Shown here: positions 7,219 to 10,771 of the stretch, piece by piece
Numbering within the stretch: the stretch's first letter is position 1
Layout: the number at the start of each line of letters is the position of its first letter
UHGV virus genome: UHGV-0067872
Strand: one strand, 5' to 3'
Origin: a virus
Length of the DNA: 39,401 bases
Program-made: the position numbers and the translations under genes
Notes under the pieces: model-generated
What the model was told of the DNA's origin: nothing
The model's database searches: none
Seen by the model: only the letters and a program-made list of their open reading frames with translations

Positions 7219-7935
7219 TCAAACCAGCCTTAGTTTTGTCTCAATTGCAACGCCTATAATCTTGCAGTTTCCATTGATTGGCACGAGAGGCCATGCAGGA
7301 TTAAGTCCCTTGAGGTATTTATTTCCGCCGTCGATTATCAGCTTCTTGAATGTTGCTTCGTTAGAGTCAGAAAGTTTTGCTATGACCAAGCTGCCGTTGA
7401 TCGCCTCCCTTCCGGTATCGAAAAGAACGAATGTTCCCTCTGGAATGCTTAACCCAACCGGTGCCGTCATTGAATCACCTTCCACTTTAAGCCAAAACGC
7501 ATTACCTTGAATATGCGCGTCAGACTCAAGCCAAACATCTATGTCTTTAATGGTGTATGGTTCGCATGCTTCACACCACGAGCCAGCCTGGATACTGCTT
7601 AACACCGGATACCTCTTTCCTGCTCTGTATTCCCCTGCATACCTTACGTTGGCATCGCTCTTAAGGCTTTCTGCCTGTTCTGCAACCTTGGCAGCAATTG
7701 ACTGGCTAAAATCAGCAATTGAGACTTGCAACAATCGTGCAAAACCAGATGCAACCTCAACGTTTAGCGCGTTTCTGCCATTAAGATAATGCCCTACCGC
7801 TCCTTGGGTGATACCCAGTTCATCAGCGATTGAGTATTGGGTTATTCCCAATTCTTTCTTTTTTGACTCATACAAAGCCTTAAGCCGCTTAGCGTCTTCG
7901 AGCTGTTCTGTCGTCAGTGATTTTTTATTTTCCAT
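7219..7935 (-). CDS. cI: cI-type repressor (HTH + S24 LexA-like autopeptidase domain)
   Basis: N-terminus LTTEQLEDAKRLKALYESKKKELG resembles lambda cI; C-terminal domain with AGSWCEACEP and VEGDSM motifs of S24 peptidases; divergent from cro. Confidence 0.9.
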   Translation of the reverse strand: MENKKSLTTEQLEDAKRLKALYESKKKELGITQYSIADELGITQGAVGHYLNGRNALNVEVASGFARLLQVSIADFSQSIAAKVAEQAESLKSDANVRYAGEYRAGKRYPVLSSIQAGSWCEACEPYTIKDIDVWLESDAHIQGNAFWLKVEGDSMTAPVGLSIPEGTFVLFDTGREAINGSLVIAKLSDSNEATFKKLIIDGGNKYLKGLNPAWPLVPINGNCKIIGVAIETKLRLV

Positions 7936-8010: not shown

Positions 8011-8041
8011 CTTTGTTCATGGTTAATAACGGAGAGTGCAT

Positions 8042-8236
8042 ATGATTCGAATGACACTTGCCGATTACGCCAAAATCCATGGACAGGCTAAAGCAGCCAG
8101 TGACTTTGGTGTAATCCAGTGCGCTATCAGCAAGGCCATTCTGGCAGGCCGTAACATCATGGTTACGGTAAAGCCTGATGGCAGTGTGATTGGAGAGGAA
8201 GTTCGTCCTTTCCCAAGCAACAAGAAAAACAAATAG
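8042..8236 (+). CDS. cro: Cro-like repressor
   Basis: Track begins at GTG 8036; ATG 8042 has GGAG upstream; sequence parallels lambda Cro (DYA..GQ.K.A.D.GV.Q.AI.KAI.AGR...PFPSNKK). Confidence 0.7.
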
Positions 8237-8242
8237 TAACAC

Positions 8243-8287
8243 CGCTCTTTAACAGTCATGGTCATCATTCCCGCCGAAATGCGGGAA
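8243..8287 (+). promoter_or_regulatory. nutR (boxA CGCTCTTTA plus boxB hairpin TTCCCGC-CGAAAT-GCGGGAA)
   Basis: Read directly between cro and cII; hairpin identical to nutL. Confidence 0.55.
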
Positions 8288-8344
8288 TACAACGCGCATA
8301 AGTTGATGCGCATAACTTCTTATTTGTTAAGGAAATACTTACAT

Positions 8345-8638
8345 ATGGTTCGTGCAAACAAACGCAACGAGGCTCTACGAATAGAGAGTGCGTTGCTTAA
8401 CAAAATCGCAATGCTTGGAACTGAGAAGACAGCGGAAGCTGTGGGAGTTGATAAGTCGCAGATCAGCAGGTGGAAGAGGGATTGGATTCCAAAGTTCTCA
8501 ATGCTGCTTGCTGTTCTTGAATGGGGTGTCGTCGACGACGACATGGCTCGATTGGCACGACAAGTTGCTTCGATTCTCACCAATAAAAAACGCCCGGCGG
8601 CAACCGAGCGTTCTGATCAAATCCAGATGGAGTTCTGA
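8345..8638 (+). CDS. cII: cII transcriptional activator
   Basis: From ATG 8345 the protein MVRANKRNEALRIESALLNKIAMLGTEKTAEAVGVDKSQISRWKRDWIPKF... matches lambda CII as I remember it; the track ORF 8258.. is an upstream extension. Confidence 0.9.
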   Translation: MVRANKRNEALRIESALLNKIAMLGTEKTAEAVGVDKSQISRWKRDWIPKFSMLLAVLEWGVVDDDMARLARQVASILTNKKRPAATERSDQIQMEF

Positions 8639-8670
8639 GGTCATTACTGGATCAATCCACAGGAGTCATT

Positions 8671-9516
8671 ATGACAAATACAGCAAAAATACTCAACTTC
8701 GGCAGAGGTAACTTTGCCGAACAGGAGCTAAGAGTGGCTGATATCGATGATGGTTACACCAGATTCGCTAACGAGCTGCTGGAAGCTATCGCAAGTGCCG
8801 ATTTAACCGCTCGCCAGTTGAAAGTTATGCTGGCCTACGTCCGGAAAACATATGGCTTCAATAAGAAAACAGATCGAATAGCCGATGAGCAAATTGCTCA
8901 GTTAACAGGACTGTCAAGGCAGAATGTTAACAAGGCTAAAAAAGAACTGATTTCAATGAATTGCCTGTTTATGGATGGAAATAAAATCGGTGTAAACAGG
9001 GAGGTATCTGCGTGGCAATTCAGCAAGTGTCTCCAAGTTAGCAACTTTGTCTCGAAGTTAGAGACAAAAAATGTCTCCAAATTAGAGACACTCAATGTCT
9101 CGAAGTTAGAGACACACAAAAGACATTCTTTAAAGACAAAAGAAAATATTAATAAACCCCCTATATCCCCCAAAAAAGTTTCTCAGAAGTTCGACCCGCT
9201 AGAAACAGAGTTACCTGATTGGTTATCAGCAGAAACATGGTTGTCGTGGGTTACCTATCGCAAGGAGATAGGTAAGTCGATCAAGTCTAAGCAAAGTGTC
9301 ACTCAGGCTATCAACGTTCTAAGCAGAAGTCTGGAGAAGGGATATACACCTGAAGAAATTATAAACCAGAGCATCGCCAGTGGTTGGCAGGGGATTTTTG
9401 AGCCCAAGACTCCAAAGGGGAAACCTCAACCGAGGCCGCAGCATCGAGCTATGCAGGAAAACTTTGCCGCCAAAGATTACGGACAAACTGAAATGCCTTC
9501 ATGGGCGCAGGAGTGA
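8671..9516 (+). CDS. O: Replication initiator O
   Basis: N-terminus MTNTAKILNFGRGNFA as in lambda O; iterons embedded mid-gene. Confidence 0.85.
   Translation: MTNTAKILNFGRGNFAEQELRVADIDDGYTRFANELLEAIASADLTARQLKVMLAYVRKTYGFNKKTDRIADEQIAQLTGLSRQNVNKAKKELISMNCLFMDGNKIGVNREVSAWQFSKCLQVSNFVSKLETKNVSKLETLNVSKLETHKRHSLKTKENINKPPISPKKVSQKFDPLETELPDWLSAETWLSWVTYRKEIGKSIKSKQSVTQAINVLSRSLEKGYTPEEIINQSIASGWQGIFEPKTPKGKPQPRPQHRAMQENFAAKDYGQTEMPSWAQE
9028..9115 (+). repeat. Origin iterons: four copies of palindromic TGTCTC-N7-GAGACA, followed by an AT-rich tract
   Basis: Copies at about 9028, 9049, 9072 and 9097; AT-rich stretch 9130-9175; encoded peptide repeat VSKLET. Confidence 0.7.
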
Positions 9517-9518
9517 AT

Positions 9519-10412
9519 ATGAATACGACAAATGGTTACAACCTGGCACTGCAAAGGCAACTTGTAGACTCAAAAATCAATGACATTTCTGATCTGAAAC
9601 AGAAACTTGAGTTTAGCAAAATTGGATCAGCATCAGATGGAATGTCAGTTACCAGCACAGTGGAAGAGTGCGAGAAACACGGTAAATATACTTCCTATGA
9701 GAAATATCTGACCATCTCAGGAAAAAGAATTACTTCAAGTAAATCTGAGTGCCCACAGTGCCTTGAGGAGAAAATTCGTAAGAAAGAGATTGAACGTGAG
9801 CAGGCAGAACAAAGAGCAAGACAATCAAAAATTGAATACTTGTTGAATTCTCTCAATATTCCAGAGAGGTTCAAAAATTGCACTCTTCAGAATTATGAGC
9901 CTGTTAACGATGATGCAAAGCGAGTTCTTAAGGTATGCCAGGCATATGCCAGTAAGTGGCCTGAACGCCTTCAAAAAGGTGGCGGACTGGTCATGTGTGG
10001 TAAGCCTGGAACTGGAAAGAACCATCTTGCACTGGCTATCGCTAGGCACGCCATTATCGAGCATCAAAGCTCTGTGATATTTACCACTGCGTTGAAAATT
10101 GCCAGAGAGTACAAATCAACATGGTCTAAGGCCGCAACCAGAACTGAAGAAGAAGTCATTAGGCAATTTACGCATCCTGACTTGTTAATAATCGATGAGG
10201 TTGGCGTGCAGTTCGGCAGTGATGCTGAAAAGCTAATCATGTTCGAAATTATCAACACCAGATATGAATACATGAAGCCAACAATCCTGATTAGTAATCA
10301 GAGCAAAGATGAACTTTCGGCATTCATTGGTGAGCGTGTTATTGACAGAATGAATGATGGCGGCGGGTGCACTCTTGCGTTTACATGGGATAGTTACAGG
10401 AGCAGATCGTGA
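9519..10412 (+). CDS. DnaC/IstB-like AAA+ helicase loader
   Basis: Walker A VMCGKPGTGKNHLALAIA; ATG 9519 with GGAG upstream (track start 9501 is an extension). Confidence 0.85.
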   Translation: MNTTNGYNLALQRQLVDSKINDISDLKQKLEFSKIGSASDGMSVTSTVEECEKHGKYTSYEKYLTISGKRITSSKSECPQCLEEKIRKKEIEREQAEQRARQSKIEYLLNSLNIPERFKNCTLQNYEPVNDDAKRVLKVCQAYASKWPERLQKGGGLVMCGKPGTGKNHLALAIARHAIIEHQSSVIFTTALKIAREYKSTWSKAATRTEEEVIRQFTHPDLLIIDEVGVQFGSDAEKLIMFEIINTRYEYMKPTILISNQSKDELSAFIGERVIDRMNDGGGCTLAFTWDSYRSRS

Positions 10413-10699
10413 CTGGAAAAGAAATCATCCTGGAATATCTGAAAACTCATGAACAATTCTCCCCACATGAATTAGCACTGATCACAGGAATACCAAATAA
10501 CAGAATCGCTCAAGCAGCAAGGCATATGGTGAAACAAGGGCATTTGAGTGTTGTTGAGCGTAAGTGGAAGACGGTTATTTATGCAAAACGCAAAGTGAAG
10601 AAGGAGCCAATTAAAAGAAATCCAGATGGTACGGGGTGGGGATGTGCAAATCCAATGACGGCGTTTATTAATAGGGCGCTTATGGAGGTAAGGCAATGA
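10409..10699 (+). CDS. Hypothetical protein (96 aa)
   Basis: GTG start overlapping loader stop; no recognised domain. Confidence 0.4.
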   Translation: MTGKEIILEYLKTHEQFSPHELALITGIPNNRIAQAARHMVKQGHLSVVERKWKTVIYAKRKVKKEPIKRNPDGTGWGCANPMTAFINRALMEVRQ

Positions 10700-10771
10700 C
10701 CATCTACATCACTGAGCTAATAACAGGCCTGCTGGTAATCGCAGGCCTTTTTATTTGGGGGAGAGTAAATC

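What the first reader, a model, noticed from the sequence alone, without database searches (positions are those of the whole stretch)
8671..10412. Replication module: lambda-type O with in-gene iterons paired with a DnaC-type loader instead of P
O carries four 19-bp palindromic iterons (TGTCTC-N7-GAGACA) followed by an AT-rich tract inside its coding sequence, as in lambda ori. The downstream gene is a Walker-A AAA+ DnaC/IstB-like loader rather than a lambda-P-like protein. This is a known lambdoid variant but it defines the replication specificity.
Basis: partly seen in the sequence, partly recalled or inferred. Interest (0 to 1): 0.22.

Follow-up and report, generated by a model that had tools for sequence, protein, structure and literature searches.

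The report
Lambdoid origin with DnaC-like loader
This is an ordinary, already annotated phage replication module: an origin-binding protein with the origin inside its own gene, followed by a helicase-loading ATPase. Comparing many relatives suggests that a short tail at the very end of the origin-binding protein decides which loader it works with.

Summary
Window 8671-9516 encodes a lambda-type O initiator. Its N-domain is 58% identical to lambda O. The origin lies in-frame: one half-degenerate iteron plus three perfect TGTCTC-N7-GAGACA iterons, spaced 20/24/24 bp (lambda: 20/24/23). An A-rich tract of 25% G+C follows.

Window 9519-10412 encodes a DnaC-type AAA+ loader, 35% identical to E. coli DnaC, with all ATPase motifs intact. 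It is unrelated to lambda P. The module is 99% identical to phage mEpX1 and is annotated the same way there, so it is already known.

Three corrections:
- Only three iterons are perfect palindromes.
- The O C-terminal half is not lambda-like.
- The loader has an extra N-terminal helical hairpin with an invariant Cys/His cluster that DnaC lacks.

One new lead: the last ~19 residues of O (ENFAAKDYGQTEMPSWAQE) are the only part shared by unrelated initiators that sit next to this loader family. Two other tail motifs track lambda P and DnaC/YdaV in the same way. The DnaC/YdaV tail also ends host DnaT and loader-less "O-only" phage initiators. I infer, but have not shown, that the tail is the loader-docking peptide.

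The parts
8671..9516 (+). O-type replication initiator gene (281 aa)
   Evidence: Pfam Phage_rep_O E=4.6e-36 over aa 21-115. NCBIfam phage_O_Nterm. PHROG 678 'replication initiation O-like' E=3.9e-82. 99% identical to mEpX1 gp46.
8671..9015 (+). O N-terminal origin-binding domain (aa 1-115)
   Evidence: 58% identical to lambda O aa 1-115, E=3e-44; similarity stops at aa 115.
9028..9046 (.). Iteron 1, half-degenerate (TGTCTCCAAGTTAGCAACT)
   Evidence: Left arm perfect, right arm 3/6. It lies 20 bp before iteron 2, as lambda iteron 1 does. Kept with a degenerate right arm in relatives.
9048..9066 (.). Iteron 2, perfect TGTCTC-N7-GAGACA
   Evidence: Exact match; 0 expected by chance.
9072..9090 (.). 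Iteron 3, perfect TGTCTC-N7-GAGACA
   Evidence: Exact match; 24-bp period.
9096..9114 (.). Iteron 4, perfect TGTCTC-N7-GAGACA
   Evidence: Exact match; 24-bp period.
9115..9165 (.). A-rich, AT-rich tract (presumed DNA-unwinding element)
   Evidence: 25.5% G+C and 53% A on the top strand. Aligns with lambda's AT-rich region, starting CACAAAAGACA.
9205..9414 (+). O C-terminal three-helix domain (aa 179-248, ends GWQGIFEPK)
   Evidence: AlphaFold2 pLDDT about 90, three helices. No Pfam model. Large family: 8,958 cluster representatives at E<=1e-3. Includes Rac YdaU, E=2e-22. Not similar to lambda O or to DnaT.
9457..9513 (+). O C-terminal tail ENFAAKDYGQTEMPSWAQE (aa 263-281), candidate loader-docking peptide
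   Evidence: Follows a low-confidence, variable linker. It is the only segment shared with the unrelated initiator of phage Louie. Present in 77 of 79 initiators found next to this loader family.
9519..10412 (+). DnaC-type AAA+ helicase loader gene (297 aa; alternative ORF start 9501)
   Evidence: Pfam IstB_IS21. Best NCBIfam hit is DnaC, below its cutoff. PHROG 50 'DnaC-like helicase loader' E=1.5e-85. 35% identical to E. coli DnaC over 211 aa.
9519..9851 (+). Loader N-terminal helical hairpin with a beta-ribbon at its tip; invariant C51, H54 (9669-9680) and C78, C81 (9750-9761)
   Evidence: AlphaFold2 pLDDT 81-93 for aa 11-100. The four residues are invariant in 25 homologues and present in 85 of 85 loaders next to tail-1 initiators. 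Loader residues 1-85 have no counterpart in the alignment to E. coli DnaC.
9999..10022 (+). Walker A (GKPGTGKN; K167)
   Evidence: Aligned with DnaC GKPGTGKN (K112); invariant.
10179..10199 (+). Walker B (DLLIIDE; D226/E227)
   Evidence: Aligned with DnaC DLLVIDE; invariant.
10335..10349 (+). Arginine-finger region (RVIDR; R277)
   Evidence: Aligned with DnaC RVMDR (R220); R273 and R277 are invariant.
10409..10699 (+). Ren-like / MarR-like small gene that closes the module
   Evidence: 41% identical to lambda Ren over 58 aa. PHROG 1687 and 142. Its start overlaps the loader stop codon.

Best explanation
This is the replication module of a P22-like/lambdoid temperate phage, and it works as a lambda-type origin.

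Shown: the anatomy and the homologies.

Inferred from lambda:
- O dimers bind the three full iterons and the half-site through the N-terminal winged-helix domain.
- The resulting O-some bends the DNA and opens the adjacent A-rich tract.
- Rightward transcription from pR crosses the origin.

Inferred from E. coli DnaC: lambda P hijacks host DnaB, whereas this phage brings its own ATP-dependent DnaC-type loader. The loader binds host DnaB through its N-terminal hairpin, opens the ring and places it on the unwound strand. It is released by ATP hydrolysis, so release should not need DnaK/DnaJ/GrpE.

New inference: the initiator and the loader are coupled through the last ~19 residues of O (ENFAAKDYGQTEMPSWAQE). 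This tail sits after a disordered linker. I propose that it docks onto the loader, and that it, rather than the O C-terminal domain, matches an initiator to a loader family.
For: Module identity:
- Pfam, NCBIfam and PHROG assignments for both genes.
- The O N-domain is 58% identical to lambda O.
- Three exact palindromic iterons against 0 expected.
- Spacing 20/24/24 bp versus lambda's 20/24/23 bp; the AT-rich tract aligns with lambda's.
- Iteron number varies among relatives in 24-bp, frame-preserving steps (1, 3 or 4 perfect copies), as expected for binding-site repeats.
- The loader aligns with E. coli DnaC (E=1.5e-33). K167, D226/E227, N260 and R277 are invariant.
- No P-like or DnaB-like gene in the window.
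- The same module is annotated this way in mEpX1, Bas106 and N7.

Tail:
- Phage Louie's initiator has no Pfam family and shares only its last 19 residues with this O (100% identical). The same loader type follows it.
- Of 79 loci chosen by loader similarity, 77 upstream ORFs end in F-x-x-K-[DN]-Y-G-x-T-x-x-P-x-W or a close variant. They span at least two unrelated initiator N-terminal families and three C-terminal bodies.
- A degenerate DNA pattern for the tail hit 119 places, 118 of them 1-5 codons before a stop codon. In 111 a loader of this family follows. Six have too little downstream DNA. One (L240) keeps only the loader's N-terminal stub.
- Third codon positions are close to saturated while the residues stay fixed.
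- All 85 unique loaders next to this tail carry the Cys/His cluster.
- Two other tails behave the same way. NTDWIxGV precedes a lambda P homologue in 87 of 87 informative loci, including one initiator with this window's C-domain. [VI]SxPDxxIPxGFRG precedes YdaV/DnaC-type loaders in 63 loci, none with the Cys/His cluster.
Against: - Nothing here is functional evidence. Origin activity, O-iteron binding, zinc binding and the O-loader contact are all untested.
- The tail and the loader gene are physically adjacent, so their co-occurrence could reflect linkage and favoured recombination joints rather than a protein contact. The last 16 nt of the tail region also hold the loader's ribosome-binding site and an alternative start codon.
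- The residues used to define each DNA pattern are conserved by construction in those sets.
- The loader's N-terminal domain varies among close relatives (100%, about 36%, or undetectable identity) while the tail stays constant. If the tail docks there, it must bind only the conserved Cys/His core, or else it binds the AAA+ domain.
- The AAA+ part of the structure model is poor (pLDDT 40-65). Fold searches gave no informative match for the O C-domain or for the loader N-domain.
Confidence: 0.85

Rival explanations
1. The tail is conserved only because it is linked to the loader gene. Modules would recombine at a joint just upstream of the loader's translation start, and O would recruit the loader or DnaB through its three-helix C-domain, as textbook lambda O does with P.
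For: The tail directly abuts the loader gene and overlaps it by 16 nt if the 9501 start is used. In close relatives the O C-domain and the loader AAA+ domain are both highly conserved (98% and 89-100%). The C-domain family is very large and typical of initiators.
Against: Conservation runs 54 nt or more upstream of the stop codon and is at the protein level, with near-saturated third positions. The C-domain is dispensable for the association: 25 O-type and 27 non-O initiators lack it yet keep the tail and the loader. The same C-domain is found with other tails and other partners, namely YdaU with YdaV and L416 with a lambda P homologue. C-domain-bearing initiators without this tail are not followed by this loader family.
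Confidence: 0.3
2. The 24-bp repeats are simply a repetitive coding linker (VSKLET x3) with no origin function, and replication starts elsewhere.
For: The repeats are in-frame and encode a low-complexity linker between two domains. No experiment was done here.
Against: Each unit is a 6+6 inverted repeat, which a peptide repeat does not require. Position, number and spacing match lambda's mapped iterons. A matching A-rich tract follows and aligns with lambda's. No comparable repeat cluster exists elsewhere in the window: all three exact matches lie here.
Confidence: 0.05
3. The AAA+ protein is an IS21-type IstB transposition helper, or a defence or other ATPase, rather than a helicase loader.
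For: The top Pfam hit is named IstB_IS21. NCBIfam also lists IS21 helper models.
Against: It scores far better against DnaC than against IstB: NF005931 DnaC 165 bits versus IS21_help_AAA 80 bits, and 6qel DnaC E=1.5e-33 versus IstB E=1.7e-10. It shares the DnaC-specific C-terminal WDSYRSR. No IstA transposase is adjacent. It sits at the P position between O and a ren-like gene in an early operon.
Confidence: 0.03
4. The phage DnaC-like protein mainly sequesters host DnaB, or competes with host DnaC as a takeover function. Loading at the phage origin would still need host DnaC.
For: Lambda P works by capturing DnaB (established knowledge). The phage protein is only 35% identical to host DnaC and has a different N-terminal domain.
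Against: All catalytic residues of an active ATPase are invariant, which a pure sequestering protein would not need. The gene is tightly coupled to the initiator in more than 100 loci.
Confidence: 0.07

Closest known systems
Phage lambda ori / O / P replication module
   Same: The gene order cro-cII-O-loader-ren is the same. The cII 3' end, the oop region and the first ~90 nt of O are ~97% identical to lambda. The O N-domain is 58% identical. The origin lies inside O at the same codon positions, with four sites spaced 20/24/24 bp and then a similar A-rich tract.
   Different: The iteron sequence differs: TGTCTC-N7-GAGACA here, ATCCCTC...GAGGGA in lambda. The first site is half-degenerate. The O C-terminal half and tail are unrelated to lambda's. 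P is replaced by an unrelated AAA+ ATPase. By inference, loader release would use ATP hydrolysis rather than the DnaK/DnaJ/GrpE chaperones.
Escherichia phage mEpX1 gp46/gp47 (NC_019709); also Bas106 and N7
   Same: 99.1% nucleotide identity over the whole 1,742 bp. The origin is identical in mEpX1 and Bas106; N7 differs by 1 nt. The annotation is the same: 'replication protein O' plus 'DnaC-like helicase loader'.
   Different: Essentially nothing inside the module. The surrounding genome differs: this window has P22-like virion genes and a different immunity region. N7 carries a different loader N-terminal variant.
E. coli DnaC (helicase loader; PDB 6QEL)
   Same: 35% identical over 211 aa, covering the second helix of the DnaB-binding N-domain, the whole AAA+ fold and the C-terminal WDSYRSR. 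Walker A, Walker B, sensor I and the arginine finger are conserved.
   Different: The loader scores 165 bits against an NCBIfam DnaC cutoff of 357, so it is not an orthologue. It has about 50 extra N-terminal residues that form a long hairpin with a Cys-x2-His...Cys-x2-Cys ribbon, which DnaC lacks.
Rac prophage YdaU/YdaV (E. coli K-12) and chromosomal DnaT/DnaC
   Same: YdaU carries the same C-terminal three-helix domain as this O (33% identical, E=2e-22). A DnaC-type loader follows it. The layout of initiator, then tail, then loader is the same.
   Different: YdaU has a DUF1376 N-domain. YdaV has no Cys/His cluster and is closer to DnaC (50% identical). The YdaU tail is VNTVSLPDSAIPPGFRG, nearly identical to DnaT's and unlike this O's tail.
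Bacillus subtilis DnaI (helicase loader with an N-terminal zinc module)
   Same: It is an AAA+ loader of the same Pfam family, with an N-terminal helicase-interaction domain that contains a Cys/His zinc site (PMC1636449, abstract seen). The NCBIfam DnaI model gives a weak hit, E=2.4e-13.
   Different: There is no detectable sequence or fold match between the two N-domains. Zinc binding here is only inferred from four invariant residues.

Membership tests
Lambda-type replication initiator (Pfam Phage_rep_O / TIGR01610) | N-terminal winged-helix origin-binding domain that matches the family model above its curated cutoff | tested here: met
   PF04492 scores 123.7 bits (cutoff 28.7). TIGR01610 scores 108.8 bits (cutoff 45.5). 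58% identical to lambda O aa 1-115.
Lambda-type replication initiator (Pfam Phage_rep_O / TIGR01610) | Origin (inverted-repeat iterons plus an AT-rich tract) inside the initiator gene, between its two domains | tested here: met
   Three perfect sites and one half-site at 9028-9114, then 25% G+C at 9115-9165, at the same codon positions as lambda.
Lambda-type replication initiator (Pfam Phage_rep_O / TIGR01610) | Lambda-like C-terminal, P-binding domain | tested here: not met
   No similarity to lambda O beyond aa 115. The C-terminal half belongs to a different, widespread three-helix domain family. The protein is therefore a member by its N-domain only.
Lambda-type replication initiator (Pfam Phage_rep_O / TIGR01610) | Sequence-specific binding of O to the iterons, and origin function | not testable with these tools
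   Needs footprinting or EMSA and a plasmid replication assay.
DnaC/DnaI-type AAA+ helicase loader (Pfam PF01695 clade) | AAA+ fold of the DnaC/IstB clade with an intact Walker A, Walker B, sensor I and arginine finger | tested here: met
   PF01695 scores 67.9 bits (cutoff 24.1). K167, D226/E227, N260 and R277 align with DnaC K112, D169/E170, N203 and R220 and are invariant in 25 homologues. The residue roles come from my own knowledge of DnaC.
DnaC/DnaI-type AAA+ helicase loader (PF01695 clade) | Orthology to enterobacterial DnaC (NCBIfam equivalog NF005931) | tested here: not met
   164.8 bits against a cutoff of 357. 35% identity. It is a phage paralogue, not DnaC itself.
DnaC/DnaI-type AAA+ helicase loader (PF01695 clade) | N-terminal domain that binds the replicative helicase | tested here: inconclusive
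   The second helix of the N-terminal hairpin aligns with DnaC residues 39-72. The model shows a confident helical hairpin. The extra ribbon has no structural match, and DnaB binding was not tested.
DnaC/DnaI-type AAA+ helicase loader (PF01695 clade) | Loads DnaB onto single-stranded DNA in an ATP-dependent way | not testable with these tools
   Needs biochemistry or genetics.
IS21 IstB transposition helper | Equivalog-level match to IstB and an adjacent IstA transposase | tested here: not met
   NF038214 scores 79.8 bits against a cutoff of 200. The neighbours are O and a ren-like gene, with no transposase.
Lambda P-type helicase loader | Sequence similarity to lambda P | tested here: not met
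   BLASTP E=0.069 over 20 residues, which is noise. tblastn of lambda P against the whole window gives no hit.
DnaT C-terminal ssDNA-binding domain (PF17948), considered for the O C-domain | Profile-level similarity to DnaT residues 84-153 | tested here: not met

The most novel reading that the evidence does not exclude
Phage and prophage replication initiators carry interchangeable C-terminal 'address tags' of about 15-20 residues. Each tag would specify which helicase-delivery protein the initiator recruits.
- Tail 1 (ENFxxKDYGxTxxPxW, on this window's O) goes with Cys/His-cluster DnaC-like loaders.
- Tail 2 ([VI]SxPDxxIPxGFRG) goes with DnaC/YdaV-type loaders.
- Tail 3 (NTDWIxGV) goes with lambda P.

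Tail 2 is also the C-terminus of host DnaT, and of 'O-only' phage initiators such as those of HannyBb and SfII. Two predictions follow. DnaT would recruit DnaB-DnaC through its last ~17 residues. Loader-less lambdoid phages would replicate by mimicking that tail to borrow host DnaC.
Probability: 0.45. Interest if true: 0.6.

Novelty: already known. Interest (0 to 1): 0.3.

Why it matters
The module itself only fixes this phage's replication specificity and shows once more how lambdoid replication genes are shuffled. Near relatives on the same P22-like backbone carry O plus a DnaB-like helicase, or O plus P.

The comparative by-product could matter more. If the C-terminal tail is the loader-docking element, it gives a simple sequence rule for predicting which loader any phage initiator uses. 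It would explain how initiator bodies and loaders can recombine freely without losing function.

It also makes two open questions testable:
- How DnaT recruits DnaB-DnaC during replication restart, stated to be unknown in PMC13377028.
- How the roughly 10% of lambdoid phages that encode only an O homologue replicate, stated to be not understood in PMC12315714.

Tried and rejected

4. PDB sequence search with O and with the O C-domain profile: chance hits only.

5. A word-indexed homologue search with the O C-domain alone returned only 22 candidates, mostly fragments. The exhaustive profile search was needed to see the family.

6. Rfam: no RNA family reached its gathering threshold anywhere in the window.

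7. IstB/IS21 and lambda P readings of the loader: rejected.

8. L240, the one apparent exception to the tail-loader rule, is a deletion remnant that keeps the loader's first 102 residues.
Full report
WHAT IS THERE. The window is a P22-like/lambdoid temperate phage genome. It has an integrase at one end, then a cI/cro/cII region, nin genes, lysis genes, portal, coat and tailspike. The finding covers two co-directional genes downstream of cII. ORF 8671-9516 (281 aa) matches Pfam Phage_rep_O (E=4.6e-36, aa 21-115), NCBIfam phage_O_Nterm and PHROG 'replication initiation O-like'. ORF 9501/9519-10412 matches IstB_IS21/DnaC-type AAA+ models and PHROG 'DnaC-like helicase loader' (E=1.5e-85). A Ren-like gene follows at 10409-10699, 41% identical to lambda Ren.

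CHECK OF THE OBSERVATION: ITERONS. The pattern TGTCTC-N7-GAGACA occurs exactly three times in 39.4 kb, all inside O at 9048, 9072 and 9096. Shuffles give none. Allowing two mismatches adds nothing. It is not noise. The four sites are spaced 20/24/24 bp, against 20/24/23 bp for the four annotated lambda iterons, and they occupy the same codons of O. The degenerate right arm persists in relatives whose O C-terminal part is only 77-83% identical.

CHECK OF THE OBSERVATION: AT-RICH TRACT. An A-rich tract follows at 9115-9165 (25.5% G+C, 53% A). It aligns with lambda's AT-rich region from the shared CACAAAAGACA onward. Among 57 related loci the number of perfect copies is 1, 3 (most) or 4. Copies are always gained or lost in 24-bp, frame-preserving units. 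This behaviour fits binding-site repeats embedded in a coding linker. In lambda, two iterons plus the AT tract suffice for unwinding and three iterons suffice for growth (PMC7466680). Three full sites are therefore ample.

THE INITIATOR IS A CHIMERA RELATIVE TO LAMBDA. Residues 1-115 are 58% identical to lambda O, and the similarity then stops. The cII 3' end, the oop region and the first ~90 nt of O are ~97% identical to lambda. The C-terminal half consists of four parts:
- the iteron-encoded linker;
- a confidently modelled three-helix domain, aa ~179-248, ending GWQGIFEPK (pLDDT ~90);
- a low-confidence, variable linker;
- a conserved 19-residue tail.

The three-helix domain has no Pfam model and no informative PDB match by sequence or fold. 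It nevertheless defines a very large family: 8,958 50%-identity cluster representatives at E<=1e-3. In that family it is fused to many different origin-binding N-domains: HTH_36, DUF1376, Phage_rep_O and DnaD_N. E. coli K-12 Rac YdaU is a member (E=2e-22).

THE LOADER. The protein aligns with E. coli DnaC over residues 86-296 (35% identical; 6qel_G E=1.5e-33), including the C-terminal WDSYRSR. Walker A K167, Walker B D226/E227, sensor I N260 and arginine finger R277 align with DnaC K112, D169/E170, N203 and R220. All are invariant in 25 homologues.

The protein is not DnaC's orthologue: it scores 165 bits against the 357-bit equivalog cutoff. It is not IstB either: 80 bits against a cutoff of 200, and no transposase is nearby. 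It is unrelated to lambda P, and the window holds no P-like or DnaB-like gene. The likely start is the ATG at 9519, 5 nt after GGAG. Homologues begin there, and Bas106 is annotated that way.

Unlike DnaC, the loader has a ~110-residue N-terminal region. This is modelled with pLDDT 81-93 (aa 11-100) as a long helical hairpin with a beta-ribbon at its tip. It carries invariant C51-x2-H54 and C78-x2-C81, a probable zinc site. This recalls DnaI's zinc module (PMC1636449), but no fold match supports homology.

ALREADY KNOWN. The 1,742-bp module is 99.1% identical to phage mEpX1, where it is annotated 'replication protein O' and 'DnaC-like helicase loader'. Bas106 and N7 carry it too, and 31 of 5,426 complete E. 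coli genomes hold it at full length. Lambdoid replication modules with DnaC-type loaders are established in the literature, and enterobacterial dnaC is regarded as a domesticated phage gene (PMC5109545, citing Wrobel and Wegrzyn 2002). Near relatives of this phage's backbone carry O plus a DnaB-like helicase (Kapi1) or O plus P (CUS-3) instead. The module is an exchangeable cassette.

WHAT TRACKS THE LOADER. In 57 close relatives this C-domain is always followed by this loader and never by P. Those loci are mosaics: O N-domain variants (100% or 88% identical) and loader N-domain variants (100%, about 36%, or undetectable) occur in several combinations.

The decisive case is phage Louie. Its initiator has no Pfam family and a different body. 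It shares only its last 19 residues with this O (100% identical), and the same loader type follows it.

Three wider tests agree:
- In 79 IMG/VR loci chosen by loader similarity alone (58-100% identical), 77 upstream ORFs end in F-x-x-K-[DN]-Y-G-x-T-x-x-P-x-W or a near variant.
- Among 134 unique tail-bearing initiators, 107 have O-type N-domains. Of these, 82 have this C-domain and 25 have another. The other 27 belong to the unrelated 'MARSRNIKPGFF' family.
- A degenerate DNA pattern for the tail hit 119 places. Of these, 118 lie 1-5 codons before a stop codon and 111 are followed by this loader family. Six have too little downstream DNA. The one real exception (L240) is a deletion that keeps the loader's first 102 residues.

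Third codon positions in the tail are near saturation (up to 1.9 bits) while the residues are fixed. All 85 unique loaders next to this tail have the Cys/His cluster.

OTHER TAILS BEHAVE ALIKE. Members of the C-domain family end in a handful of discrete tail motifs.
- YdaU ends ...VNTVSLPDSAIPPGFRG and precedes YdaV, which is 50% identical to DnaC. Chromosomal DnaT ends ...VNTVSEPDSQIPPGFRG and precedes DnaC.
- In IMG/VR, 118 of 120 matches to this second tail lie at the extreme C-terminus of initiator-sized ORFs. Of these, 63 precede YdaV/DnaC-type loaders, none with the Cys/His cluster. In another 47 the next sizeable ORF matches none of the reference loaders or helicases. In the two such loci examined, that ORF is a ~140-aa gene and no loader is found anywhere in the locus.
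- Named phages with this tail and no loader are HannyBb and SfII. There the next gene is annotated as a Ren-like exclusion protein (HannyBb) or a transcriptional activator (SfII). Their initiators have a lambda-O-type C-domain.
- Lambda's own tail (NTDWIxGV) precedes a lambda P homologue in 87 of 87 informative loci. One of these (L416) carries this window's type of C-domain.

So C-domains and tails assort independently, and the tail follows the partner.

MECHANISM. Shown: the anatomy, the homologies and the associations above.

Inferred from lambda and DnaC biology: O binds the iterons, forms an O-some and opens the A-rich tract. The phage loader, bound to host DnaB through its N-terminal hairpin, is brought to the open DNA. 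It loads the helicase using ATP and leaves after hydrolysis. Release would then not need the DnaK/DnaJ/GrpE step that lambda P imposes.

My added inference, at about 45-50% confidence: the O tail is the docking peptide for the loader, perhaps on its conserved Cys/His core or its AAA+ domain. The main rival is plain genetic linkage of the tail to the adjacent loader gene. The protein-level conservation argues against that rival. So do the independence from initiator body type and the two parallel tail-partner systems. None of these arguments excludes it.

VERDICT. The tail-partner rule is the only potentially new result. It bears on how DnaT recruits DnaB-DnaC (unknown per PMC13377028) and on how loader-less lambdoid phages replicate (not understood per PMC12315714). 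It needs the experiments listed above.

Noticed in passing
window 8587-8696 (minus strand): An oop-like antisense RNA unit. It has a promoter-like site (8696..8668, TTGAGT-17-CATAAT with an upstream TG) and an intrinsic terminator-like hairpin (8614..8587) antisense to the cII 3' end. The 146-bp stretch 8560-8705 is ~97% identical to lambda's cII-end/oop/O-start region. No Rfam family reached threshold.
   Followed up: partly
E. coli K-12 loci L285 (dnaT-dnaC) and L286 (Rac ydaU-ydaV): DnaT and the Rac prophage initiator YdaU end in nearly the same 17-residue tail: VNTVSEPDSQIPPGFRG versus VNTVSLPDSAIPPGFRG. BLASTP of the two proteins gives E=9e-9. Each gene sits immediately upstream of a DnaC-type loader, and DnaC and YdaV are 50% identical. 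The pair dnaT-dnaC therefore looks like the syntenic counterpart of a phage initiator-loader pair. I found no paper in the held library that links DnaT and YdaU.
   Followed up: partly
IMG/VR loci L321 and L287; phages HannyBb (L407) and SfII (L408): 'O-only' replication modules. The initiators have a lambda-O-type C-domain but end in a DnaT/YdaU-type tail (...ISEPDTEIPPGFRG in HannyBb; a shorter ...YSQIPAGFRG in SfII). The next gene is not a loader or a helicase (annotated Ren-like exclusion protein in HannyBb, transcriptional activator in SfII), and no loader or helicase gene follows it. This suggests they borrow host DnaB-DnaC by mimicking DnaT's tail.
   Followed up: partly
window 9205-9414; proteins P0140-P0287: The three-helix C-domain of O (LPxWL...W..WV..R...KKP......I..L.....G..P..VI..SIANGWQGLF.PK) has no Pfam model. 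It is nevertheless found in about 9,000 50%-identity clusters, fused to HTH_36, DUF1376, Phage_rep_O, DnaD_N and HNH-containing N-terminal regions. It is an uncurated, widespread initiator domain.
   Followed up: partly
IMG/VR loci such as L160-L162, L167, L205 (initiators beginning MNTAEILQFPSESGG...): A second class of O-type initiators next to the same loader family replaces the three-helix domain with a segment (FSPTE..LA..LGVNLQ.EF.AF.DYH.SKGS.FKNWDAAL.TW) that resembles the DnaT DNA-binding domain weakly (Pfam PF17948 E=0.08; hhalign E=0.006). This is not significant on its own.
   Followed up: partly
IMG/VR loci L026, L029, L043, L013: Natural origin variants of the same module. Some have four perfect iterons (a 24-bp unit duplicated), one has a single perfect iterons copy (two units deleted), and in L013 iteron 3 is replaced by a second copy of the iteron-4 unit. 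These are ready-made material for testing iteron-number requirements.
   Followed up: no
window 7219-7935 (minus), 8036-8236, 8258-8638: The immunity region is mosaic. Cro (Pfam Cro) and cII (Phage_CII; its 3' end is ~97% identical to lambda at the DNA level) are lambda-like. The 238-aa S24-peptidase repressor and the leftward genes differ from those of mEpX1 and Bas106, which carry the same replication module.
   Followed up: no
window 10725-10748 (plus strand): An intrinsic-terminator-like hairpin (AGGCCTGC...GCAGGCCT followed by TTTTATTT) lies just after the ren-like gene, at the end of the O-loader-ren block.
   Followed up: no
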